A stretch of 64,000 nucleotides of DNA. It comes from the human T2T-CHM13v2.0 reference genome, Homo sapiens. This document shows, piece after piece, positions 18,721 to 40,935 of the stretch (the first letter of the stretch is position 1; each line of letters starts with the position of its first letter). Position numbers and translations under genes: made by a program. The DNA lies in the NCBI RefSeq assembly GCF_009914755.1, contig NC_060944.1, one strand, 5' to 3'. The notes beneath the pieces are model-generated. The model saw only the letters and a list, made by a program, of their open reading frames with translations. It searched no databases and had not been told where the DNA came from.

Positions 18721-19538
18721 AATTAGAAAAAAAATGGAAAAATCTGGTTCAGGAACCCAGGCTTCTCCTCTCTCTTGCCCTCCCTGCTGGGGTGCACTCT
18801 GGCAGCAAACAATTCCCCCTGGCCTGTGCGTTGGCTGTGCCCAAGGCTCCCCACTCCGTCTGCAGGGTGGCCTGAGGGGATCCTGCTGGAGCCTCCATCC
18901 CTCAGCAACCTGAGGCCTGGACCCTTTCTTTCTAGCATGTGTCACCGCCCTGCATGAGGGCCACACATTCAGAGCTTCATCAGCATCCTTCAAGCGAGAG
19001 CTCAGATTTTCCCGTTCCATGTCTGCCCTCCTTATGCCCCACATGGGCAAGATCTGCCCTAGCTTGCTGTTCTCCAATCCCAAGCATGCTGGGCCCACCT
19101 TCCTCCTCCACCCATCTCACTCAGTCCTAGGCCTGGGTTTGCTTGAGCTCTCAAACTGGCAGTCCCAGGGATGTGTGCGGGTGTGTGTGTGCACACGAGA
19201 GAGACAAAGTGTATTTAAACAATTTTACAATTTTGAATTAGTTTATAGTGTTTTAAAACCAAGAGCTTTAATGCCTCCTCTTGACAAGTTGTTGTTGACT
19301 GTGTGCTATGATTCAGGCCCCTTTTCAGAGGCTGGGAATACAGAAGTCAACAAAACAAGGACATGGCCAAAAAGAAACTGACATTTTACAGGTGTTTGCA
19401 TTAGAATAATAAAAAAAATTCCTGCTTCTCCTAATAATGGAACATTTCATCCAGAATGGGTACACATATCCTACCTGGCAACAGTAAGAATGGATCCCAG
19501 ATCAGTGGTGACCTGTTGACCAACTGTTGTCTCCGCAG

Positions 19539-19641
19539 GCACCTGCTCTGAACATGGGGATGTTTTTGTGGACTTTCCTCCTCCCTTGGTACCTGCTTAG
19601 CATAAGCCATGCTCAGTTGGGAGGTTCCAGGTCCCAAACAG
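19539..19641 (+). pseudogene. BPIF-like gene: signal-peptide exon (ATG 19554)
   Basis: tgtctccgcag|GCACCTGCTCTGAACATGG...CAAACAG|gtaagc; MGMFLWTFLLPWYLLSISHA/QLGGSRSQT; good Kozak context (aacATGG); ends in phase 1; ATG 15 nt into the exon, the same offset as BPIFA2 exon 2. Confidence 0.8.
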
Positions 19642-20511
19642 GTAAGCCATCCCATCTTTCCTGGAAGCTCCTTCCAAGGAGATTCCAAAAGAAGCAAGTT
19701 TACCTCCATTGGACAAACAGTCATCTGTCATCAAATCTGATTCATTAGAAGAGCTTAGATTTGCAAGTGTCACAAGAGGCAACTGGAGGCAACTCAGAGG
19801 TTCCTAATCTCCTTTAGATCACCTCTTGGTGTCTAGATTATGTATTATATTAACACAAACCACATGCACTCTCTGCTGTCTTAATCATAGTATTCCATTC
19901 TTACACTTAGTTCCCAGGTAAATCTTTCTAGCCTTAATCACTGATGATCTGAGTCCCATGAGATTGCAGAAAGGAGCTTGACCAGTTGCTTTGGGACCAC
20001 ATATCACAGATTTATAGCTTCCAATTTTACAATAAAGAGCTCGTAAAAAAAATCACCCATATGCTTCGAGTCCACAGCCTGACCCATGTTTTCTCTGAAA
20101 ATTTCTTATCTGTAACCCAACTCCTGGTACCAGTTTCTGTCTTAGTTATTGGTTTGGTTGCAAGGAGCAGAAACTTTTCTGACAAAAAAGAAAACAGTAA
20201 AAAAAAAATTGTGAAAAGGGAAGTAGGGTTATCTCTCTGATATCAAAGTTTATACATCCCCTGGACCTCCCAGGGCATTAAAAACAAGATCTGGGAAACT
20301 AACAACAACTAAAGCAGCCACGATGCTTCTTTTTGATTCTCTGAGCATAACTATATCATTGTTTTCTCTTTATTGTTTATCCATTCCACCATAGATGGCC
20401 CAAGTGTGGTCACCACCATGTATCTGACTTTTCATTGCCTCCTGGGTCAAGTGCTCAAGAAAATCTAGTGCAAGATTGAGACTCAGTTCTAAATTTGCAA
20501 GGGTAATTCTT

Positions 20512-20711
20512 TTTTTTTTGATAGTGCTGATTTTCTTTTTTTTTCTTTTTTTTTATTATGCTTTAAGTTTTAGGGTACATGTGCACATTGTGCAGGTTAG
20601 TTACATATGTATACATGTGCCATGCTGGTGCGCTGCACCCACTAACTCGTCATCTAGCATTAGGTATATCTCCCGATGCTATGCCTCCCCCCTCCCCCCA
20701 CCCCACAACAG
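20512..20711 (-). mobile_element. Young 5'-truncated L1PA 3' end in the intron of the BPIF-like gene
   Basis: Near-consensus 'tttaagttttagggtacatgtgcacattgtgcaggttagttacatatg...'; putative TSD aattctt. Confidence 0.85.
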
Positions 20712-20831
20712 AATTCTTATCCTGATTCCTGAATGTGGTCACAGAGCTGGTTCTGGGTTGAGCTCCTTACTCCTATGTTCCTAATGGGAGTGTGTAGCCT
20801 TGAGTTCACCTATGTGTCTCTGTCCCAACAG

Positions 20832-23641
20832 GTAGTAGAAATGGAGGTCTCCTGGGCAGCAGTGGTCTCTTGGGTACAGGACTTCTCAAGAATGGCCAGG
20901 TGCTCGGCAATGGTGGTGTTCTTGGCACAGGCCTTCTCAGTGGGAATAACCATCAGGCTGGGGCCAACAGTGGTTCCCCAACTACAAGAGTTGCTGCTCA
21001 CCTCTCTGAGCCAAACCACCTTGAGAATGACCAGGAATACATTTATCTGAGTTCCCCTCATGCCGAAGATGCCACTGAGTACAGCATCAAGCCTGGGAAA
21101 TCCAGTATGTTCCAGATGCCCACTCTGCTGCCCACACCCCCAGTGAGAATGGCTGCTTCTGCCCCTACTCCATCTGTGAGAATCCATGTGACCAATCAAG
21201 ACACTATGGGTAAACTTGGTCAGAGTGAGATGGGCGGTCCAGGCTCTACTGACAAAAGTGCTGTGATCAGTCAAGGATCCTTAGGTCACAAAGGAATGAC
21301 TACCCCTGGACAATTAAGTCAGAAGGTTATAAAGAGCCTTGGCTACTCTGACCACAAGTGGATGACCCAATCTGGCCATACAGGTGTGGGTGATATGAGC
21401 TTCTCAGGCAGTGGTCAACCTTCAGATGCTTCTTCAGGAAATGCTGTTGTGTCTGGGGTGGCTTCACCTGGCAGTTACGGTCAGTATGGGGCTGAGTCAT
21501 CTGATGGTTTGGGTCAATCTAGGGCAGGACTAATAACTGATCATCCTGGGACTGGGAAAAATGATGATTTTGGTCAGTCTGAGGCAGGGTTAATGAGTTA
21601 TCAGACTGGTGGTAGGTCATCTGGTTACGGTCAAACTGGGGATAGGTCATATGAGTATGGTCAGCAAGGAAACAAGTCATTTGGAGGGTATGGTCAGTCT
21701 GGGGTGGAGTCAATAAACAGCCTGAGCCTGGGTCATCTGGTGGCTTGGGTCAATCTGGAGCAGAGCCAATGAATGGTAAGTAAGGGGCTGGATCATTTAG
21801 GGGTTTGGGTCAATCTGGGGTAGGTTCAATGAATTCTCAGACCGGCAATAGGTTTCCTAGTGGTTATGGTCAAACTGAGGCTGGGCAATCTGGTGGCTAC
21901 GATCAGTTTGGGACAGGGTCATTTGGAAGGTATGGTCAGTCTGAGGCAGGGTCAATAAATGTTCAATCTGGGTCTAGACCATCTAATGGTATGGGTCAAC
22001 TTGGAGCAGAGTCAATGAACAGTCAGCCTGGGGCTAAACCATCTGGTAGCCATGGTCAGTTTGGGACAGGGTCATTAGGAGCGTATAGTCAGTCTGGGTC
22101 TGGATCATCTGGTTCTTTGGGTCGATCTGGAGCAGGGTGAGTGAATGATCCAACTGGATATAGGTTATCTAGTGCTTATGGTCAAACTGGGGCAGGGTCA
22201 CTAAATGGTCAGTCTGGGGTTGGGTTATCTGGTAGTCTTGGTCAATCTGGGGCAGGGTCAATGAGTGGTCAGACTGGGGATAGGTTATCTAGTGATAATG
22301 GTCAAACTGGGGCTGGATTATCTGGTTGTCTTGGTCAGTCTGGGACAGGGTCAATGAGTGGTCAGATTGGAGACAGGTCATCTAGTGGTTATGGTCAAAC
22401 TGGGCCAGGGCCACTAAATGATCAGTCTGGGGCTGGGTTATCTGGTGGTCTTGGTCAGTCTGGGGCAGGGTCAATGAGTGGTCAGACTGGGGATAGGTCA
22501 TCTAGTGGTTATGGACATCTTGGGACAAAGACATCTGTAAGCTATGGTCAGTCTGGGGCAAGGTTAATGAATGTTCATCCTGGAGATGGGACAACTGGTA
22601 GTATTGATCAATCTGGGGTAGGGTCAATGAATGGTCAGCCTGGGCCAGGAACATATGCTGGTGACAGTCAGTTTGCACTAGGAGCATCTGGAGGATATGG
22701 CCAACCTAGGTATGGGTCACCTAGTCATTTTAGTCAATCTGAGACTGTATCATTGAATGGTCAGCCCAGAGTTAGGTCATCTGGTGTGCTGGGTCAGTCT
22801 AGGGTTGAATCAATGAATGGTCAGCTTGGGGTGGGACTGTCTGATGGCTCTGTTCAACCTGGGGCAAGATCATCAGGAGGAAATGTTCAACTTGGAGAAG
22901 GGACATCTGATCGTGATATGCATTCTGGGGCTGGATCATCTATAAATTCTGGTCAGTTTGGGGCTGGGATATCTGTTGGCTATGGTCAGTCTGGAGCTAA
23001 GTCACATGACAGTCATGGTCAGTCTGAAGCTCGGTCAGTCTAGAGGTTATGGTCAATTTGGGGCTGGAGTATCTTTTAGCTGTGGCCACTCAGGAGCTAG
23101 GCCACCTAATGATTATGACAAGTCTGGGGCTGGGTTCTACTTAGGTCACGGCCAGCCTGGGCGTGGCACCCCTGGCCCCTCTGGTCCACCTGGGGAAACA
23201 CCATCTGGAGATCTTGGCCACATGGGATCCCCAGTGGATGATAAGGCTCCCCAACACAGGAGTCCAGTCAATGGCAACACACTGCCTCCCCCGGTTCATG
23301 ATGGTCAAGGAGGGGGGTATAGGAGCAGGAGCTGGAAACACACTCAGTCAGCAATTGCCAACAACTGCCCTCAACAAAGACCTCCTGGCTCAGGAAGGGC
23401 TGCTTGGAGCCATCATTCTCAACAACCAGAATCTGGTTAGGGAGAGAGAGATGCTACTTAAGATCCTCCTGGGCAGCAGGACCTTACCTACTGGAAAAGA
23501 TCATCTGCTGGAGGCAGCAGGGTCTCTGGCTCTGGAAGGACTGCTCTGCAAGGGTTCTCTGGGGGGCCTCTGTGGCCACGGGAGTCTTGTTGGCATCAAC
23601 AATGTTCTGAAGAGCACTTCTTTCGGGAAACTCAACAGCTG
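20832..23641 (+). pseudogene. BPIF-like gene: giant 2810-nt exon with GLLG repeats and G/S/Q-rich (GQSG/GQTG) tandem repeats; disabled
   Basis: ctgtcccaacag|GT acceptor is in phase with the signal exon; ORFs 20870-21772, 21805-22140, 22141-23043, 22958-23440 and 23163-23645 tile one repetitive protein; ends AGCTG|gtaagt in phase 2. Confidence 0.8.
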
Positions 23642-24234
23642 GTAAGTTTAAGTCCTTCATCAATAAAACAGTTTCCCAATGCACTGATCAACAAGGGTTC
23701 TAGGTGCTCACTATATGTTAAGTGTTGGAGTCTGACTCACCTAATTGGAAGGCAGACAGTAAGAAGGCAGCCTCAGACGCCGCCTCCTCCTGCAAACTCT
23801 CAGCCCACTGCCCAGCATCCCATCATTATGGCTTCACCCCTTGGATTTATGAAGGTTTGTCTAAGCCTCCACTAAATTACAAATAGCATTGAAAAGGGGT
23901 ACAGCAGAAGCTCTTCCCAGCTAGTACTTTAGTTATTATTTAATACCCCAGTGGTTAAAAACAGCATCTTTGTATGCTAACACTGTAATTTCCAACTGAT
24001 GCTTTGAATTTGACATCTTAATTTTCCTTTAACATCTTAATTAACTACAAAAGTGTTAGTTATCAGCTAATGCTTTTCTTGTCTAGGATTTGGAAATGGG
24101 ATTTAGAATGGAAATCTAGGTCAAGGATACGAAGGCCCAGGATAGAAGAAAAGCCATGTTGAAGTTTGAGTAATAAGTCGAGAAGACTGGGAAGTTCTGC
24201 TTTTCCACTTCACCTTGCTCTTCCCATTCTTCAG

Positions 24235-24342
24235 GCTCAAAATCATCAACTTTGATATCATCCAGGTGGCGTGGAAGAAGGTCTATCCTTTATCCAACCT
24301 CCAACTAGAATTTCAGACCAGGTTGACTATCAAACTCCCAGG
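24235..24342 (+). pseudogene. BPIF-like gene: BPI exon homologous to BPIFA2 exon 4 (108 nt, phase 2-2)
   Basis: ttcttcag|GCTCAAAATCATC...CCCAGG|gtgagt; same length and phase as BPIFA2 exon 4, starts LKI, ends G. Confidence 0.85.
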
Positions 24343-24414
24343 GTGAGTAACTTATTCATGGCAAGAGAAGCCAGGTGGAAGAGAATTCTTGGAGATAGTA
24401 GGCAGTTTTTTTAA

Positions 24415-27400
24415 ATGTTTAATTTTTGTGGAAACATAGTAGGCATATATACTTATGGGTTACATGAGATACTTTGATATGGGCATGCAATATGTAATAA
24501 TCATATCATGGTAAATGGGGTATCTATCCCCTCACACACTTATCCTTGGTGTTATGAACAATCCAATTATGCTCTTTTAGTTATTTTTAAAGTACAATTA
24601 AATTATTATTGACTATAATCACCCTGTTGTGCTATCAAATACTGGGTCATATTTATTCTTTCTAATGATTTTTGTACCCATTAATCATCCCTTCCCCACT
24701 CCTATCACCTCACTACCCTTTCCAGCCTCTGGTAACCATCCTTCTATCACTATGAGTTCAACTGGTTTAATTTTTAGCTGCACAAATAAGTGAGAACATG
24801 CAAAGTGTCTTTCTGTGCCTGGCTTATTATACTTAACATAATGATCTCCAGTTCCATCCAGGTTGTTGCAAATAACAGGATCTCATTATTTTTATGGCTG
24901 AATACTACTTCATTGTATATATGTACCACGTTTTCTTTATCCATTCATCTTTTGATGGACACTTAAGTTGCTTTCAAATCTTGGCTATTGTGAATAGTGC
25001 TGCAACAAACATGGGCGTGCAGATATCCCTTCAATATACTGATTTCCTTTTTAGGAGTGTATATACTCAGAAGTGGGATTATTGGATCATAAGGTGGCTC
25101 TATCTTTAGTTTTTTGAGGACCCTCCAAACTGTTCTACATAGTGGTTGTACTAATTTATATTCCCACCAACAGTGTACGAGGGTTCCCTTTTCTCCACAT
25201 CCTCGCCAGTATTTATTATTTCCTGTCTTGGATAAAAGCCATTCTAACTGGGGTGAGATGATATCTCATCGCAGTTTTGATCTGCATGTCTCCAATGATC
25301 CATGTTATCAAGCACCTTTTCATATGCCTGTTTGGCATTTGTATGTCTTCTTTACAGAAATGTGTATTCAGATCTTTTGCTCATTTTCAAATTAGATTAT
25401 TAGATGTTTTCCTATAGAGTTGTTTGAGCTCCTTATATATTCTGGTTATTACTCCCTTGTCAGATGGGTAGTTTGCAAATATTTTCTCCCATTCTGTGGG
25501 TTGTCTCTTCACTTCGTTGATTGTTTCCTTTGTTGTGCAGAAGCTTTTAAACTTGATGTTATCTCATTTGTTCACTTTTGCTTTGGTTGCCTGTGCTTGT
25601 GGGGTATTACTCAAGAAAGTTTTGCCCAGACCAATGTCCTGGAGTTTCCCCAATGTTTCCTTTTAGTACTTTTATAGTTTGAAGTTTTATATTTAAGTCT
25701 TTAATCCATTTTTATTTGAGTTTTGTATATGGTGAGAGATAGGTGTCTAGTTTCATTCTTCTGCATATGGATATCCAATTTTCCCAGCACCATTTATTGA
25801 AGAGACTGTCTTTTCCCCAGTATATGTTCTTGGTACCTTTGTTAAAAATTAGTTCAGTGTATGGATTTGTCTCTGAGTTCTCGATTCTATTCCATAGATC
25901 TGTGTATCTGTTTCTATGCCGGTACCATGCTGTTTTGGTTATTGTAGCTCTGCAGCATAATTTGAAGTCAGATAATGGGATTCTTCCAGTTTTGTTCCTT
26001 TTACTCTGGATAGCTTTGGCTATGCTGGGTCTTTTGTGGTTCCAGATGAATTTTATAATTATTTTTCTATTTCTTTGAGCCATGTTATTTGTATTTTGAT
26101 AGGGATTGCATACAATCTGTAGATTGCTTTGGGTAGTATGGACATTTTAACAATATTGAGTCTTCCAATCCATGAACATGAAATATCTTTCAATTTTTTG
26201 GTGCCTTTTTAAATTTCTTTTGTCAGTGTTTTATAGTTTTCATTGTAGAAATCTTTCACTTATTTGGTTAATTCCTAGGTATTTAATTTTATCTGCAGCT
26301 ATTGTAAGTGGGATTACTTTACTTTAATTTCTTTTTCATATTGTTAACTGTTGGCATAAAGAAATATTACGGATTATTGCAAGTTGATTTTGCATCCTTC
26401 AACTTTACTGAATTTGTTTATCAGTTCTAATAGTTTTGTGGTGGAGTCTTTAGGTTTTTCCAAATACAAGATCATATCATCTGCAAGAAAGGACAATTTG
26501 ACTTTTTCTTTCCAACTTGGATGCCCTTTATTTCTTTCTCTTGTCTGATATCTCTAGCTAGGACCTCAGTACTACGCTGAATAACAGTGGTGAAAGTGGG
26601 CATCTGTGGCTTATTGCAGATCTTAAAGGAAAAGCTTTCAGTTTTTCCCCGTTCAGTATTATACTAACTGAGGATCTGTACATATGGCTTTTATCTTGCT
26701 GAGGTATGTTCCTTTTATACCCAGTTTTTTTTGTGGGGGGGGGGGGTTTATCGTGAAGGAATGTTGAATTCTATCAAATGTTTTTTCAGCATCATTTGAA
26801 ATTATCATATAGTTTTTATCCTTCATTCTATTGATATGATGTATAATACTGATTGATTTGCATATGTTAAACTATCCTTGCATCCCTGGGATAAATCCCA
26901 CTTGGTCATGATGAATGATCTTTTTGGTTTGCTAGTATTTTGTTGAGGATTTTACATCAATATTTATCAGAGATATAGAGATAATGGCCTGTAGTTTTCT
27001 TTTTTTTGATGTGTCTTTGTCTGGGTTTGGTATCAGAATAATACTGACCTCATAAGAATGACTTTGAAGTATTCTCTCCTGCTCTATTTTTTGAAATAGT
27101 TTCAGTAAAATTGGTATTAGTTCTTCTTTAAATGTTTGGTAGCATACAGCAGTGACACCACTGGGTCTCAGCCTTTCTTTTACTGGGCGATATTTTATTA
27201 TAGCTTCAATCTCGTTACTTGTTATTGGTCTGTTTAGGTTTTGGATTTCTCCATGGTTCAATCTTGGTAGATTGTGTGTATCCAGGAATGTATCCATTTC
27301 CTCTAGGTTTTCCAATGTATCAGTGTATAGTTGCTCATAGTAGCCAGTGATGATCCTTTGAATTTCTGAAGTATCCGTTGTAATATCTCATTTTTCATCT

Positions 27401-29652: not shown

Positions 29653-30105
29653 TTAACCATTCTACTGTTAGATACTTGGGTTGTTTTCAATTTTCACGCT
29701 TATAAATAACTTTGTGATTAATATCTTGAGGAATAAACCTTTGTTCATATCTCTGTTTACTTACTAATTCTCAGAAGGGTAATTTATAGCTTTTGATAAG
29801 TATTGCCAAATTATCCTCCAAAGAGATGACGGTGGTGATAAAACATGACCAATGTTACTGAGTGCTTAAAATATTCTAGGCCCCTTGTTAAGGGCTTTTA
29901 TGAATTGTCTCATATGATCTTCACCAGAACCTTAGAAACGAGGTACTGCTATTCTGCTCATTTTACGGAACAGGAAAAAAAAAAAAACTCAGAGAGGTTA
30001 AAGTCAATTGTGCTTGGGGATGTGGATGTGCACATATCTCCAGAAGGAGGCATGAAAAACATCGGTTGGGTAAGCATAGACACAGAATACACAAAGAAAG
30101 ACAGA

Positions 30106-30686
30106 ATGGAAGGAGGGGAGAAAGGGAGGAAGGGAGGAAGGGAGGAAGGAGGGAGGGAGGGAGGAAGGAGGGAGGGAGGGAGGGAGGGAAAGAGGGAGGG
30201 AGGGAAGGAGGAAAGGAAGGAAGGAAGGAGGGAGGGAGGGAGGGAGGGAAAGAGGGAGGGAGGGAAGGAGGAAAGGAAGGAAGGAAGGAGGGAGGGAGGG
30301 AGGGAGGGAAAGAGGGAGGGAGGGAAGGAGGAAAGGAAGGAAGGAAGGAGGGAGGGAGGGAGGGAAAGAGGGAGGGAGGGAAGGAGAAAAGGAAGGAAGG
30401 AAGGAGGGAGGGAGGGAGGGAGGGAAAGAGGGAGGGAGGGAAGGAGGAAAGGAAGGAAGGAAGGAGGGAGGGAGGGAGGGAGGGAAAGAAGGAAGGAAGG
30501 AAGGAAGGAGGGAGGGAGGGAGGGAGGGAAAGAGGGAAGGAAGGAAGGAGGGAAGGAAGGAAGGAGGGAGGGGGGGAGGGAGGAGGGAGGGAAAGAAGGA
30601 GGGAAGGAAGGAGGGAGGGAGGGGGAGGGAGGAGGGAGGGAAAGAAGGAGGGAAGGAAGGGAAAAGGAAGGAAGGAAGGAAGGAAA
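30106..30686 (+). repeat. (GGAA/GGGA)n purine tract with ~56-60-bp higher-order units
   Basis: Lines starting 30181, 30241 and 30301 are identical 60-mers. Confidence 0.95.
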
Positions 30687-30871
30687 ACATTGGTGAGGTG
30701 TGTGATCTCAACAGGGTTACTGGGTAGCGAGGGGACATTGGTGGGGGCCAGGCTCTTCACTGTACGTTTTTCCATCTTTTGAATTTTAAACCACAGCAAT
30801 GTATTCCGTATTCAAAAATAAACTAAAACATTTACTTAACTCACTTCCTATATACATTCAAAAACAAATCA

Positions 30872-31482: not shown

Positions 31483-31623
31483 GTTGCTTGGCTTCCTCAG
31501 TGGCTCCACAGTGGACGTGAACATCATGGCTACCTTTGTGCTCTCCCAGACCAAGCTGGGTCAAATCTCTCTTGACTTGCAGAACTGCCAGCCAGTCTTC
31601 ACTAGGATCCACATGCGAGCAAG
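31483..31623 (+). pseudogene. BPIF-like gene: BPI exon with first conserved Cys (141 nt, phase 2-2)
   Basis: gtgcacag|GTTGCTT...GCAAG|gtaggt; LLGFLSGSTVDVNIMA...QNCQPV. Confidence 0.85.
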
Positions 31624-33784: not shown

Positions 33785-33848
33785 CCTGCTCTCTGCAGTG
33801 ATGGAGACCATGTTGAAATGGATCCTGGATACCTCCCTACCCAACATG
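33785..33848 (+). pseudogene. BPIF-like gene: 64-nt helical exon (phase 2-0)
   Basis: ctccccag|CCTGCTC...AACATG|gtaagt; LLSAVMETMLKWILDTSLPNM. Confidence 0.8.
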
Positions 33849-36154: not shown

Positions 36155-36215
36155 CTGTGCCCAGTGGTCCAGTTCTGGTTCTACATTATCTATCAACAGT
36201 TGAACGTTCTGAAAA
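36155..36215 (+). pseudogene. BPIF-like gene: 61-nt 'LCP' exon (phase 0-1)
   Basis: tatttcag|CTGTGCCCA...CTGAAAA|gtgagt; LCPVVQFWFYIIYQQLNVLK, paralogous to the BPIFA2 ICPLIRIF exon. Confidence 0.85.
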
Positions 36216-36839
36216 GTGAGTTGTGCCGATGGCTTGAGACCAAATCTGTTTAGACCGTTGCATACCCCCTTCCCCCACTCCTGCTTTCTCCCCTTCATGG
36301 CTGCCAGAGAGATTTTTCTGGATCACATCTCTGATCAAAATCTTCTGCAGATGACCAGGAGGATCAAGGGCACACCCCCAAGGCTGGCAGTTGAGATCTC
36401 TCCTGCAACTGCTCCATCCAGCCTTAGTCTTGTCTTTCTTCTTGCTGCTCCAGCTGGTTGGCCTCAGCCACCCCCATACATGCCAGCCCCTTTTGAGACA
36501 CAATGGCTTTGCTCTTGGAGACTTCCTACACCCTCTTTCTGTGCCTGGAAAACTCTTTTACCCCTTCAAGGTGTGACTCCCATGATTTGTCCTTCCAAAA
36601 CCTTTGCAGATCTCTCCAGGCAGAAGGACTCCCTCCTGAGGACTTCTGCAGGACTGTGCACACCCATCTGGTATTCATCATATAGCTTAGTAACTCTCTG
36701 TTTCTTGGCTGTGTCTTTAATCTAGACCAGAAGCTTGTTAAGGGTTGAGACTTTGTTGTACTCTCTCTTGTATTTGTCTCATAGTCCTTGCTGGGCACAG
36801 AGTAGACCCACCATGTCAACTTTGTTGGCATAGGAACTG

Positions 36840-37450
36840 GAGATGAAAGGAAGAAATGTGGATGGACAGAAGTATGAATGAATGATAAAATAGAAAAATG
36901 AAAAGATGAATGGAAGAATGTATGGATAGAAGGGTGGATGAGTGATATTTAAATAGAAGGAAGTATGGATGTGAAATGATGGATGGAGAACAAAGGAAGG
37001 GAGGGAGAGAAGGAGGGAGGGAGGGAGAGAGGAAGAAAGGGAGGGAGAGAGGGAGGGAGGGAGGAAGGGAGGGAGGGAGGAAGGAAAGAAGGAAGGAAGG
37101 AAGGCAGGCAACTTGGATAAAAGGTGAAGAATATGTGGATGGATGGATGGGAGAAGCAAAGGGAGAAAGTTGGAGAAAAGTATGGAAAGAGAAGGAAAGA
37201 AGGAAGGTTGAATAGGAGGATGAATGGATTAAAGTGTACATAAATGGTGGTTGGAGAGGTGAGTGAATGAATGAAGGAAAGATTTATTACTGGATGTGTG
37301 GGAAGATGAATGGTGGCTAGGTGGATGGATAAATAATAGATGGATTAATGAATGGGTGAAGGAAGAAAAAAGCTATAGAGATGGATGAATGAAAAAGAAG
37401 GAAGAAAAAAAGGAAAACTTGGTGGCTGGGTGGATGGATGGGAAGATGTG
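36840..37450 (+). repeat. GA-rich low-complexity / (GGAA,GGAT)n region
   Basis: Direct inspection. Confidence 0.8.
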
Positions 37451-37739: not shown

Positions 37740-37831
37740 ATGTCCACTTACTCAGATTATTTAGGGACCACCTCTCACCTCTCTCCCAAATACCCCTGTT
37801 GTCTCAGCAGTATCACTGCCTGGAGTTTCAG
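37740..37831 (+). pseudogene. BPIF-like gene: 92-nt linker-type exon (phase 1-0)
   Basis: Long pyrimidine tract, ccatcag|ATGTCC...TTTCAG|gtagga; ...LSQIPLLSQQYHCLEFQ resembles the BPIFB inter-domain linker. Confidence 0.7.
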
Positions 37832-39025: not shown

Positions 39026-39068
39026 GACAAATACTTCCCAGGCTCTTTCATTAACTGGCTGCTTGAAA
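39026..39068 (+). pseudogene. BPIF-like gene: 43-nt exon (phase 0-1)
   Basis: ttttttccccag|GACAAA...GAAA|gtaagt; DKYFPGSFINWLLE; in phase with the preceding exon. Confidence 0.6.
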
Positions 39069-39820: not shown

Positions 39821-40935
39821 TCTATTGTGAGAAGCTTTCCAGAACTGATTTCTGAGTCTGGAGGAATTTTTAAAAAATCACTGTGCTTTCATTACATTTC
39901 CCAAATCTCCTATGCTTACTGCTGAGGCAAGAGCGGAGGGAGGTAGGCAAAGAAGGAGAGTTGTCCTGGACCAAACTTCTGGACTAACTGCCGTTATAGG
40001 GTGCCTTGTGCCACTTCTCAGTTTCTCACCGAGGCTGGGCACCAGGCAGGAGGCAGGAGAAAAGATGGGACACTCCTCTCCCCCAAGCAGGCGGGGAAGC
40101 CTATTGTTCCCCTGGGGAGACAGGGAAGCTTTTAAGCCCTCTTGCTGTTTCTCTGGGACTTCTCCAACATTATGGTGAAAGCCAGAAAAGGTGAGCAGAA
40201 ACAGCCCTAAGCCAGGCATCCTGAGACCTAGGTTTTAAGACCCAGTTCAGACACTAACTCTCTGGGAGAACTTATGCCAGCCCCACCCTCTCTCTGGGCC
40301 TCTCTCCTCTCATCTGTAAAGTGTGCCGAGTCTCCAAAGGCCTTTCTTTCAATAAGAATGTTGGGAAGGTGGAAAGCAGGGCAAAACCTTGGCCGCAACA
40401 AGTCTTTCTCATGGTGGCGTCTTCTAATGTCTTCTGTGCTGTCGGTTGCAGTGACCCCTCAGTCTTCCTATTTCTAGGATGAGCATGGGACCCCGCCAAG
40501 ACTATGGTAAGGATGTTCAAACGCTGGAGCATCACTGTGGGACTCCCCTCTAAGTGGCTGTGACCTTGATCTACCCACCAATGATTTCCCGCAGCCAAAC
40601 CACAAATAGTTCCTTCATTAGAGCTTATGTTTGGATATGCCCAAAGCTGATAAGCTGGGAAATTTCCCAAGGGAAGGTAATTCAGCATGGAGCTGATGGA
40701 GGTAGAAGAGCCTCTAAGAAGCAGACTAAAGGAATGGTGCCTGACAGGGGAAGGGAAGTGAATGCCCCTTCCACTTCAGACAGATGGTCGGATTTATAGC
40801 TTAGGATTTGAGTATTCTTGAGGACCATCTGAAGCTGATGAGATGTTCCATCCAGCAGGTCAATGGCCTTGCAGTAAGATGTATGAAGCCAGGTTACAAG
40901 CCTGACTTTAAGTCTGTTAGAACTAAAGGAAGTAG

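What the first reader, a model, noticed from the sequence alone, without database searches (positions are those of the whole stretch)
21400..23200. Hornerin/filaggrin-2-like G/S/Q tandem repeat in the N-terminus of a PLUNC-family protein
Seen: ~600 codons of alternating ~9- and ~11-residue units (GQSGAGSMS / GQTGDRSSSGY; 27+33 = 60-bp period at DNA level, ggtcagtctggggc...), continuing across the lesions. Known: similar G/S/Q repeats occur in the S100 fused-type proteins hornerin and filaggrin-2, where Gln-rich repeats are transglutaminase substrates; hornerin repeat fragments have been reported as antimicrobial. Inference: a signal peptide + disordered GSQ repeat + BPI fold would be an unusual secreted polymer-forming or barrier protein. 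The resemblance is probably convergent low-complexity expansion, not homology.
Basis: partly seen in the sequence, partly recalled or inferred. Interest (0 to 1): 0.78.

Follow-up and report, generated by a model that had tools for sequence, protein, structure and literature searches.

The report
Dead human BPIFA6 gene's repeat exon
The glycine/serine/glutamine repeat is real, but it is the decayed middle of one giant exon of a dead, unannotated human copy of the secreted lipid-binding gene BPIFA6, and it resembles the skin protein hornerin only in amino-acid composition.

Summary
Window 21440-23140 (+) holds about 570 codons of degenerate 27+33 = 60-bp units, in the one frame that avoids stop codons.

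It is the centre of a 2810-bp exon (20832-23641). A signal-peptide exon (19554-19641) precedes it, and six short exons that encode a single BPI-fold domain follow it.

The best database matches are mammalian BPIFA6 (SPLUNC6) orthologues at 56-87% identity. Two chimeric gene models place that gene between BPIFB4 and BPIFA2, as here, and the human genome holds no other copy.

The human copy is broken by three frameshifts and two stop codons, all in the giant exon. The other seven exons stay open with GT-AG splice sites, and the lncRNA LOC105372714 reuses those sites. I read it as a unitary pseudogene that RefSeq does not annotate as one.

Repeat-bearing ORFs continue in frame into the BPI domain in horse and a ruminant-like sequence; in dog and bear models part of the array is joined to it. 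Seven rodent or rodent-like sequences lack the repeat. No database protein combines signal peptide, repeat and BPI domain.

With composition correction the repeat shows no similarity to the hornerin or filaggrin-2 loci, there is no S100 domain, and the periods differ. The resemblance is convergent.

Interest is modest.

The parts
19554..19641 (+). Exon 1. It holds the ATG and a 29-codon signal-peptide-like leader (MGMFLWTFLLPWYLLSISHAQLGGSRSQT), ends in phase 1, and has its GT donor at 19642.
   Evidence: Sequence and translation. It aligns to the leader of the sloth model P0006 (57% identity, E 3e-7) and weakly to rodent leaders. No signal-peptide predictor was run.
20832..23641 (+). Giant exon 2 (2810 bp). 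It comprises an N-terminal non-repeat part, the G/S/Q repeat array and the start of the BPI-fold domain. The AG acceptor is at 20830-20831 and the GT donor at 23642.
   Evidence: The 3' 106 codons hit 16 mammalian proteins at 56-87% identity. The 5' part is colinear with P0017 and with dog P0003.
21440..23140 (+). Degenerate tandem array of about 570 codons, built of 9- and 11-residue units (27+33 = 60 bp).
22088..22577 (+). Best-preserved core of the array, with higher-order periods of 120 and 213 bp (84-86% matches for the period-213 rows).
   Evidence: Autocorrelation is 0.64 at lag 60.
21716..21717 (+). Frameshift 1. Two bases stand where whole codons are expected, and the reading frame moves from position-mod-3 = 2 to 1.
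   Evidence: Dog P0003 continues in frame across this point.
21781..21783 (+). In-frame TAA stop.
22138..22140 (+). In-frame TGA stop.
23030..23035 (+). Frameshift 2. One unit is 34 instead of 33 bases long, and the frame returns from mod-3 = 1 to 2.
   Evidence: Horse P0001 aligns to frame 1 up to 23037 and to frame 2 from 23033.
23309..23318 (+). Frameshift 3 inside a run of G, moving the frame from mod-3 = 2 to 0.
   Evidence: Horse P0001 and P0007 align to frame 2 up to about 23311-23317 and to frame 0 from 23313.
24235..24342 (+). Exon 3 (108 bp), BPI-fold domain, AG/GT kept.
   Evidence: (E 2e-10 with P0004). It is also an exon of LOC105372714 in the hub table.
31483..31623 (+). Exon 4 (141 bp). 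It holds the first conserved cysteine.
   Evidence: (E 1e-12 with P0005).
33785..33848 (+). Exon 5 (64 bp).
   Evidence: (E 0.002-0.08, weak when taken alone). It has the same bounds as an lncRNA exon in the hub table.
36155..36215 (+). Exon 6 (61 bp). It holds the second conserved cysteine, 35 residues after the first.
   Evidence: (E 8e-6).
37740..37831 (+). Exon 7 (92 bp).
   Evidence: (E 4e-5).
39026..39068 (+). Exon 8 (43 bp), the conserved FINWL motif near the C-terminus.
   Evidence: (E 2.5e-5). It has the same bounds as an lncRNA exon in the hub table.

Best explanation
The repeat is the decayed central part of exon 2 of the human orthologue of BPIFA6 (old name SPLUNC6, recalled). BPIFA6 is a single-domain member of the BPI-fold/PLUNC family and lies between BPIFB4 and BPIFA2.

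In the ancestor the exon was coding throughout. A signal peptide (exon 1) led into a short Gly/Leu-rich stretch. About 570 residues of G/S/Q/Y-rich units of 9 and 11 residues followed, and then the lipid-binding BPI-fold domain (end of exon 2 plus exons 3-8).

In human the gene is a unitary pseudogene. Three frameshifts and two nonsense codons, all in exon 2, stop translation after 342 codons, before the BPI domain. Only the 3' part is transcribed, as the lncRNA LOC105372714, which reuses the old splice sites.

Shown here: the repeat, the frame, the lesions, the exon map, the orthology, the single-copy status and the lack of homology to hornerin.

Inferred: that the array was translated in the ancestor and may still be translated in some mammals. 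There it would be a disordered spacer with regularly spaced aromatic or aliphatic residues ahead of the BPI domain. That would suit self-association or tethering in tear or nasal fluid.
For: - **Orthology.** The last 106 codons of exon 2 hit 16 proteins. They include horse, bear, dog, goat, tree shrew, sloth and five named rodents, one of them named 'BPI fold containing family A, member 6'.
- **Pfam on orthologues.** PF01273 reaches its cut-off in 5 of 9 orthologue sequences scanned, falls below it in 1, and is absent in 3.
- **Exon-by-exon match.** The orthologues align to eight window exons in order.
- **Synteny.** The sloth model P0006 is a BPIFA6+BPIFA2 chimera colinear with the window. 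The hamster model P0016 is a BPIFB4+BPIFA6 chimera.
- **Single copy.** The tree-shrew orthologue matches only this locus in the whole human genome; 2 of the 12 candidates scored matched, and both lie in this locus.
- **Coding nature of the array.**
  - All periods are multiples of three.
  - One frame is nearly free of stops, against 9-40 stops in almost all the other frames.
  - The frame is continuous with the non-repeat 5' flank in human and in P0017. Dog P0003 starts inside the array.
  - The frame is continuous with the BPI domain in horse P0001 and in P0007/P0008.
- **Lesions.**
- **Intact remainder.** Exon 1 is open, and the end of exon 2 through exon 8 reads 279 codons without a stop. 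All 7 introns keep GT-AG.
- **Conserved cysteines.** They are 35 residues apart, inside the 35-46 range given for the family in passages of PMC1839098.
- **Literature.** Mouse BPIFA6 protein is found in tears (passages of PMC5502090). Bpifa6 could not be mapped to a human orthologue (passage of PMC7078197).
Against: - No database protein shows the full architecture. 0 of 22 proteins combines signal peptide, repeat and BPI domain.
- Two length-restricted searches for long proteins and one exhaustive search found no long repeat-bearing protein.
- All 7 sequences with a signal peptide lack the repeat, so it is dispensable at least in rodents.
- Several repeat-bearing fragments (P0017, P0018, P0019) contain out-of-frame stretches, so the exon may be broken in other species too.
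- Human exon pieces alone hit no Pfam family, and the orthologue profile hit no solved structure.
- The ratio of replacement to silent differences between the two 213-bp copies is 1.3 (25 against 7 differences). That gives no sign of protein-level constraint.
- The equation SPLUNC6 = BPIFA6 and the BPIF nomenclature are recalled. The nomenclature paper was not held.
Confidence: 0.85

Rival explanations
1. The human locus still encodes a protein without the repeat. A transcript would join the intact signal-peptide exon to an internal acceptor near the 3' end of exon 2. One in-frame AG gives an exon start at 23260, after CCCCAACACAG, which resembles the true exon-2 acceptor CCCAACAG. Alternatively a transcript would start inside exon 2. 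Either would read the intact BPI-domain frame through exons 3-9.
For: - Exon 1 is open, and 279 codons from 23313 through exon 8 are open.
- All splice sites are intact. With the annotated exon at 40452-40506 the frame ends 8 codons later.
- Frame 0 is open from 23145, and 9 in-phase AG sites exist in 23146-23420.
- The sloth model joins exon 1 close to this region.
- An earlier RefSeq model of LOC105372714 was an mRNA, XM_017028195.1, as listed in a table of PMC7766365.
Against: - No annotated transcript contains exon 1 or such a junction, and current RefSeq calls the locus lncRNA (hub table).
- No primate protein appeared among the 16 hits of a query taken from this very exon.
- The candidate acceptors have weak pyrimidine tracts, 0.15-0.55.
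- Zero lesions in about 0.9 kb is not improbable by chance. At the exon-2 rate of 5 lesions per 2.5 kb about 1.9 would be expected (my arithmetic).
Confidence: 0.05
2. The array was never coding. It would be a minisatellite that expanded inside exon 2 or an intron only after the gene had died, or independently in several lineages.
For: - Copies show no excess of silent over replacement differences.
- Rodent and sloth proteins lack the array.
- No full-length repeat-bearing protein is known.
Against: - Every period is a multiple of three.
- Only one of six frames avoids stops.
- Both ends of the array align colinearly, not just unit to unit, with horse, a ruminant-like ORF, dog and P0017. Identity is 42-62%, and those sequences run in frame into the flanking coding sequence.
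- Presence in a primate and in Laurasiatheria points to an array older than their split.
Confidence: 0.07
3. The repeat is homologous to the hornerin/filaggrin-2 repeats, for example through exon shuffling from the epidermal differentiation complex.
For: - Composition is similar (G, S, Q rich and K poor).
- BLASTP without composition correction gives 93-101 bits at 32-33% identity over about 300 residues.
Against: - With composition-based statistics there are 0 alignments to the hornerin-like frame, and the best E-value to the filaggrin-2-like frame is 0.011.
- A six-frame search of the whole genome with the 300-residue repeat frame found only this locus; 2 of the 28 candidates scored matched, and both lie here.
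- An exhaustive search of 1.84 billion representative proteins gave 7 hits. Six are fragments of this exon's orthologues and one is an unrelated repeat protein; the S100 fused-type proteins did not appear.
- Periods differ: 20 and 71 residues here, against 13/26/39 and 75/77.
- None of the 37 S100-domain matches in the genome lies on chromosome 20.
Confidence: 0.02

Closest known systems
Rodent BPIFA6 (SPLUNC6), a secreted single-domain BPI-fold protein found in mouse tears and nasal cavity
   Same: - It is the orthologous gene, 61-66% identical over the end of exon 2.
- It has the same exon order and the same signal-peptide motif (…SHA/SHG).
- It has the same conserved cysteines and the same C-terminal FINWL motif.
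- It has the same neighbours, shown by the chimeric models.
   Different: The rodent proteins (354-477 aa) pass from the short N-terminal region straight to the BPI domain, with no G/S/Q array. They are intact and expressed (passages of PMC5502090 and PMC5807349). The human copy is broken.
BPIFA4P (latherin/BASE) and other human BPIF pseudogenes in the same 20q11 cluster
   Same: It is a lineage-specific loss of a BPIF gene that stays intact in other mammals, and it is still transcribed. The hub table lists BPIFA4P as a transcribed pseudogene. Passages of PMC1839098 say that BASE and LPLUNC5 are pseudogenes in human but intact in cattle.
   Different: This locus is not annotated as a pseudogene in the annotation supplied. 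It also carries a 1.7-kb coding-type repeat that no other BPIF gene in the window shows.
Hornerin and filaggrin-2 (S100 fused-type proteins, 1q21)
   Same: One very large exon encodes a G/S/Q-rich, lysine-poor tandem repeat. The filaggrin-2 A-type repeats are G 28.8%, S+T 32.6% and Q 15.0% (passages of PMC2668185). The values here are G 25.6%, S+T 22.3% and Q 8.2%.
   Different: - There is no S100/EF-hand head.
- The chromosome differs, and there are 8 or more exons rather than 3.
- The unit is 9+11 residues rather than 13/39 or 75-77.
- No similarity survives composition correction.
- This is a secreted-type gene rather than a cytoplasmic cornified-envelope precursor.
Glycine-loop and SYGQ-type low-complexity domains (loricrin, keratin end domains, corneodesmosin, FUS family); recalled, not tested
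   Same: An aromatic or aliphatic residue recurs about every 9-11 residues in a G/S/Q matrix. Before the GQ anchor the residue is Y in 12, L in 7 and N in 5 of 33 cases.
   Different: This is only an analogy of pattern. No sequence relation was sought or shown, and no biophysical property was tested.

Membership tests
BPI fold-containing family A (short PLUNC) / BPIFA6 orthologue | LBP/BPI/CETP N-terminal domain (Pfam PF01273), one copy | tested here: inconclusive
   The human pieces alone gave 0 families for the 106-aa and 38-aa translations. In the orthologues that align to the human exons, PF01273 is at or above the 28.8-bit cut-off in 5 of 9 scanned (28.9-30.9 bits), below it in 1 (18.1 bits) and absent in 3. 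The orthologue profile hit no solved structure.
BPI fold-containing family A (short PLUNC) / BPIFA6 orthologue | N-terminal secretion signal | tested here: met
   Exon 1 gives M-G-M followed by a hydrophobic core and S-H-A. It is homologous to the sloth leader (E 3e-7) and similar to rodent leaders. This rests on inspection and homology only; no predictor was run.
BPI fold-containing family A (short PLUNC) / BPIFA6 orthologue | Two conserved cysteines 35-46 residues apart, and 6-9 exons for one-domain members (passages of PMC1839098) | tested here: met
   The cysteines in exons 4 and 6 are 35 residues apart in the spliced reading. Eight coding exons were mapped.
BPI fold-containing family A (short PLUNC) / BPIFA6 orthologue | Position in the 20q11 BPIF cluster between BPIFB4 and BPIFA2, as in other mammals | tested here: met
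   The hub table gives the human position. The chimeric public models BPIFB4+BPIFA6 (hamster P0016) and BPIFA6+BPIFA2 (sloth P0006, colinear with the window) give the neighbours elsewhere. A reciprocal search of a rodent genome was not possible.
Unitary pseudogene | Disabling lesions, no other copy in the genome, and a working orthologue elsewhere | tested here: met
   There are three frameshifts and two stops. Only this locus matches the tree-shrew orthologue in the human genome. Mouse BPIFA6 protein is detected in tears (PMC5502090 passages). Whether the lesions are fixed in humans was not testable.
S100 fused-type proteins (hornerin, filaggrin-2) | [quoted passage not shown] | tested here: not met
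   PF01023 gave 37 matches in the whole genome, none on chromosome 20. No family was found in the N-terminal 295-aa translation.
S100 fused-type proteins (hornerin, filaggrin-2) | Three-exon gene in the epidermal differentiation complex at 1q21 (passages of PMC2668185) | tested here: not met
   The locus is on chromosome 20 (hub table) and has eight or more exons.
S100 fused-type proteins (hornerin, filaggrin-2) | Repeat units homologous to hornerin or filaggrin units | tested here: not met
   With composition correction there are 0 alignments to the hornerin-like frame, and the best E-value to the filaggrin-2-like frame is 0.011. The genome-wide search found only this locus itself. The two chr1 loci were identified by position among the S100 hits (gene order recalled) and by their features, not by annotation.

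The most novel reading that the evidence does not exclude
The ancestral placental BPIFA6, and perhaps the gene still working in horses, ruminants or carnivores, would be a secreted protein of about 1,200 residues. In it a roughly 570-residue G/S/Q/Y domain with regularly spaced sticky residues is fused to a BPI lipid-binding fold. That architecture is not described for any BPIF protein. It could act as a self-associating or cross-linkable lipid-binding layer in tear, nasal or oral fluid. Rodents would have trimmed the domain, and the human lineage would have lost the gene some tens of millions of years ago.
Probability: 0.3. Interest if true: 0.55.

Novelty: new variant of a known kind. Interest (0 to 1): 0.35.

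Why it matters
- **Annotation gap.** The stretch between BPIFB4 and BPIFA2 that RefSeq lists only as an lncRNA is the relic of BPIFA6.
- **Older view revised.** Passages of PMC1839098 (2007) treated this gene as a mouse-lineage duplication. A passage of PMC7078197 says Bpifa6 could not be mapped to a human orthologue.
- **Gene age.** The gene is therefore old in placental mammals and was lost in our lineage.
- **New domain for the family.** BPIF proteins can carry a very long low-complexity domain, which gives a concrete target for proteomics in animals where the exon may be intact.
- **Human biology.** For human biology it is a dead gene, and the hornerin likeness has no evolutionary meaning.

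Tried and rejected
- **Vomeromodulin/BPIFB9P relic (my first guess).** Rejected. The literature listings gave nothing on this site. The homologues are single-domain BPIFA6, not two-domain BPIFB.
- **BPIFB7, BPIFB8.** The titles and abstracts listed concern chicken egg proteins, so these are irrelevant.
- **Pfam on six human translations.** No family, apart from one noise row at E 2.2.
- **Searches for long proteins.** The N-terminal 295 aa gave none among 7999 candidates. The 300-aa repeat gave none among 8000. Both searches are weak evidence, as the tool itself says.
- **Solved structures.** The orthologue profile against solved structures gave 0 hits.
- **Rfam.** 18000-45000 gave 0 matches.
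- **Prokaryote genome collection.** A scan for contaminant contigs carrying the ruminant-like exon found 250 pattern matches, none confirmed.
- **Replacement/silent ratios between repeat copies.** Values ranged from 0.48 to 2.0 depending on the pair, so they are uninformative.
- **Dating.** 324 one-step nonsense paths in 932 codons and 2 observed stops give about 15-45 million years for rates of 0.5-1.2e-9 per site per year. This is an order of magnitude only.
- **Literature.**
  - The nomenclature paper was not held.
  - The HGNC paper only cites it.
  - The main text of the unitary-pseudogene survey PMC2864566 has no PLUNC or BPI term.
  - A four-term search on BPIF and glycine-rich repeats listed 15 of 487 papers, none on a BPIF repeat domain.
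  - Another four-term search gave 4 papers, none on this locus.
Full report
**1. The observation**

The sequence at 21400-23200 is a tandem array.
- Tandem Repeats Finder gave 19 rows for 19000-26000. Thirteen lie in 21601-22577, with periods 27, 30, 33, 60, 93, 120, 153 and 213. The best row is 22094-22514 (period 213, 86% matches, score 639). The six rows outside the array are trivial.
- Base autocorrelation over 21440-23140 peaks at lag 60 (0.487), against at most 0.314 in 200 shuffles. The next lags are 153, 186, 33, 213, 246, 93, 120 and so on. Of the 15 strongest lags, 14 are multiples of three (lag 16, at 0.329, is the exception). The flanks show nothing.
- Translated, the array is about 570 residues of units that start with GQ. 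GQ-to-GQ spacing is 9 (5 times), 11 (9 times) or 20 (7 times) among 32 intervals. The residue before GQ is Y, L or N in 24 of 33 cases.
- Composition is G 25.6%, S 18.4%, Q 8.2%, Y 4.0% and K 1.2%.
- The array is unique in the human genome at DNA level, where all 4 matches fall inside the array. It is also unique at protein level, where only 2 of the 28 candidates scored matched and both fall in the locus.

**2. Frame and lesions**

One reading frame runs through the whole stretch but changes register three times.
- It is open for 294 codons from 20832.
- It shifts at 21716-21717.
- It then runs 441 codons with two stops (TAA at 21781, TGA at 22138).
- It shifts back near 23032 and runs 90 codons.
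- It shifts in a run of G at 23309-23318 and runs 109 codons to a GT donor at 23642.

The other two frames hold 15 and 22, 21 and 40, 9 and 1, and 2 and 2 stops over the same four stretches. The minus strand holds 29-51 stops per 600 codons. Each shift is confirmed by orthologous proteins that stay in one frame while their alignment to the window changes frame: dog P0003 at the first, horse P0001 at the second and third, and P0007 at the third.

**3. What gene it is**

My first guess, a vomeromodulin (BPIFB9) relic, was wrong.

The last 106 codons of the exon found 16 proteins at 56-87% identity. They are horse, bear, dog, goat, tree shrew, sloth, Nannospalax (named 'BPI fold containing family A, member 6'), Jaculus, Rattus, Peromyscus, Cricetulus and some unnamed fragments.

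PF01273 reaches its cut-off in 5 of 9 of these sequences scanned, falls below it in 1, and is absent in 3.

Aligned back to the window, the orthologues mark eight exons in order on the plus strand:

| Exon | Window coordinates | Note |
|---|---|---|
| 1 | 19554-19641 | signal-peptide-like leader |
| 2 | 20832-23641 | giant exon holding the array |
| 3 | 24235-24342 | BPI-fold domain |
| 4 | 31483-31623 | first conserved cysteine |
| 5 | 33785-33848 | |
| 6 | 36155-36215 | second conserved cysteine |
| 7 | 37740-37831 | |
| 8 | 39026-39068 | FINWL motif |

- All introns keep GT-AG. The reading from 23313 through exon 8 is 279 codons without a stop.
- The two family cysteines are 35 residues apart, within the 35-46 range stated in PMC1839098 (passages).
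- The exons of the lncRNA LOC105372714 in the hub table share these splice sites (23641, 24235/24342, 31623, 33785-33848, 36154/5-36215, 39026-39068). The lncRNA is therefore the transcribed remnant.
- Synteny: the sloth model P0006 is a chimera whose first half follows these exons and whose second half follows the BPIFA2 exons later in the window. The hamster model P0016 fuses BPIFB4 to this gene.
- The tree-shrew orthologue matches no other place in the human genome.

So this is the only human BPIFA6 copy. It is broken, and the annotation supplied has no pseudogene row for it.

In print, PMC1839098 (passages) regarded SPLUNC6 as a mouse-lineage duplication with no bovine homologue. PMC7078197 (passage) could not map Bpifa6 to a human gene. 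Mouse BPIFA6 protein occurs in tears and nasal cavity (passages of PMC5502090 and PMC5807349). That SPLUNC6 is the old name of BPIFA6 is recalled; the nomenclature paper was not held.

**4. Was the array coding?**

Evidence for:
- All periods are multiples of three.
- Only one frame is open.
- The human frame is continuous from the non-repeat 5' part of the exon into the first 95 or so repeat codons. That 5' part is homologous to the rodent N-terminal region.
- The same 5' junction is in frame in P0017. Dog P0003 starts inside the array.
- The 3' junction into the BPI domain is in frame in horse P0001 (about 165 repeat-region codons) and in the ruminant-like ORFs P0007 and P0008.
- The ends of the array align colinearly between species at 42-62% identity. 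That fits an array older than the primate-Laurasiatherian split.

Evidence against:
- 0 of 22 database proteins has signal peptide, repeat and BPI domain together. Seven have the signal peptide and none of those has the repeat. Ten have repeat sequence and none of those has the signal peptide.
- An exhaustive search of 1.84 billion representatives found only 7 hits. The best are a 374-aa fragment, the 362-aa bear model and four short fragments. The longest hit is an unrelated 513-aa protein.
- Some fragments contain out-of-frame stretches.
- Copy-to-copy replacement/silent ratios are uninformative.

Rodents show that the domain is dispensable.

**5. Hornerin and filaggrin-2**

The defining features were taken from passages of PMC2668185: an S100/EF-hand head, three exons, a 1q21 location and repeats of 75-77 residues in filaggrin-2.
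- No S100 domain lies on chromosome 20 (37 matches genome-wide, 0 there).
- I fetched the two chr1 loci that follow the fifth and seventh S100 hits of the cluster. I identified them as hornerin and filaggrin-2 by recalled gene order and by their features.
  - One is a 3195-aa open frame with S 34.9%, G 24.8%, Q 9.6%, H 9.6% and a period of 13/26/39.
  - The other is a 2356-aa open frame with a period of 75/77.
- BLASTP of the 300-residue repeat frame with composition correction gave no alignment to the first locus and E 0.011 to the second. Without correction it gave 93-101 bits at 32-33% identity.

The likeness is therefore compositional.

**6. How it works**

In human it does not work. A message from exon 1 would end after 342 codons, before the BPI domain. 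Current annotation shows only 3' fragments, as lncRNA.

In the ancestor, and perhaps in some living mammals, the inferred protein is secreted. Its glycine-rich domain is hydrophilic and of low complexity (mean hydropathy -0.68, entropy 3.6 bits). Y, L or M recur about every 10 residues, and the domain sits ahead of a BPI lipid-binding fold. I infer a disordered, self-associating or tethering domain. The many glutamines (47) and few lysines (7) would allow transglutaminase cross-linking. None of this was tested.

A crude clock from the two nonsense codons gives 15-45 million years since inactivation. No primate protein appeared among the hits, which agrees with that estimate.

**7. Residual doubt**

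Exon 1, the 279-codon BPI reading and every splice site are intact. In-phase AG sites exist near the 3' end of exon 2, for example giving an exon start at 23260. An older RefSeq model of the locus was an mRNA (table in PMC7766365). A repeat-skipping coding transcript is therefore not excluded. I give it about 5%.

**8. Verdict**

The feature is real and its identity is solved. It is an unannotated unitary pseudogene of BPIFA6 whose giant exon preserves an ancient low-complexity coding repeat that is new for the BPIF family and unrelated to hornerin. The interest is modest for human biology. It would be higher if an intact repeat-bearing orthologue proves to be expressed elsewhere.

Noticed in passing
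P0015: A 344-aa protein labelled 'hypothetical protein, partial [Salmonella enterica]', on a 1439-base contig, is a rodent-type BPIFA6. It has a signal peptide and PF01273 and is 62% identical to the human exon. This looks like host DNA contamination in a bacterial assembly.
   Followed up: no
P0006 and P0016: Two public gene models are chimeras of neighbouring BPIF genes. The sloth model (675 aa) fuses BPIFA6 with BPIFA2. The Chinese hamster model (1338 aa) fuses BPIFB4 with BPIFA6. They are useful as evidence of synteny but wrong as proteins.
   Followed up: partly
window 29842-30811: A purine-rich simple repeat in the third intron of the relic gives long open frames on both strands (GGREGGKEGRKEG… and SLPPSFLPS…, up to 292 aa). 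It overlaps a stretch masked as repeat in the hub table, and I read it as non-coding. A smaller block of the same kind lies at 36779-37344.
   Followed up: no
window 23080-43852 (LOC105372714): A table in PMC7766365 lists an alternative ORF in the '5'UTR' of XM_017028195.1 for this locus. An earlier RefSeq release therefore modelled it as an mRNA, whereas it is now listed as lncRNA.
   Followed up: partly
window 20840-20965: The start of exon 2 encodes a Gly/Leu-rich stretch (GGLLGSSGLLGTGLLKNGQVLGNGGVLGTGLLSG). It resembles the GGLLG-type run that precedes the BPI domain in the BPIFB4 part of P0016, and it is partly kept in rat BPIFA6.
   Followed up: no
P0021: A 513-aa protein of unknown origin has a different 11-residue repeat (GQTGDRLGTDW…). 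It matched the query at E 1e-6. It looks unrelated to BPIFA6, with no flanking similarity.
   Followed up: no
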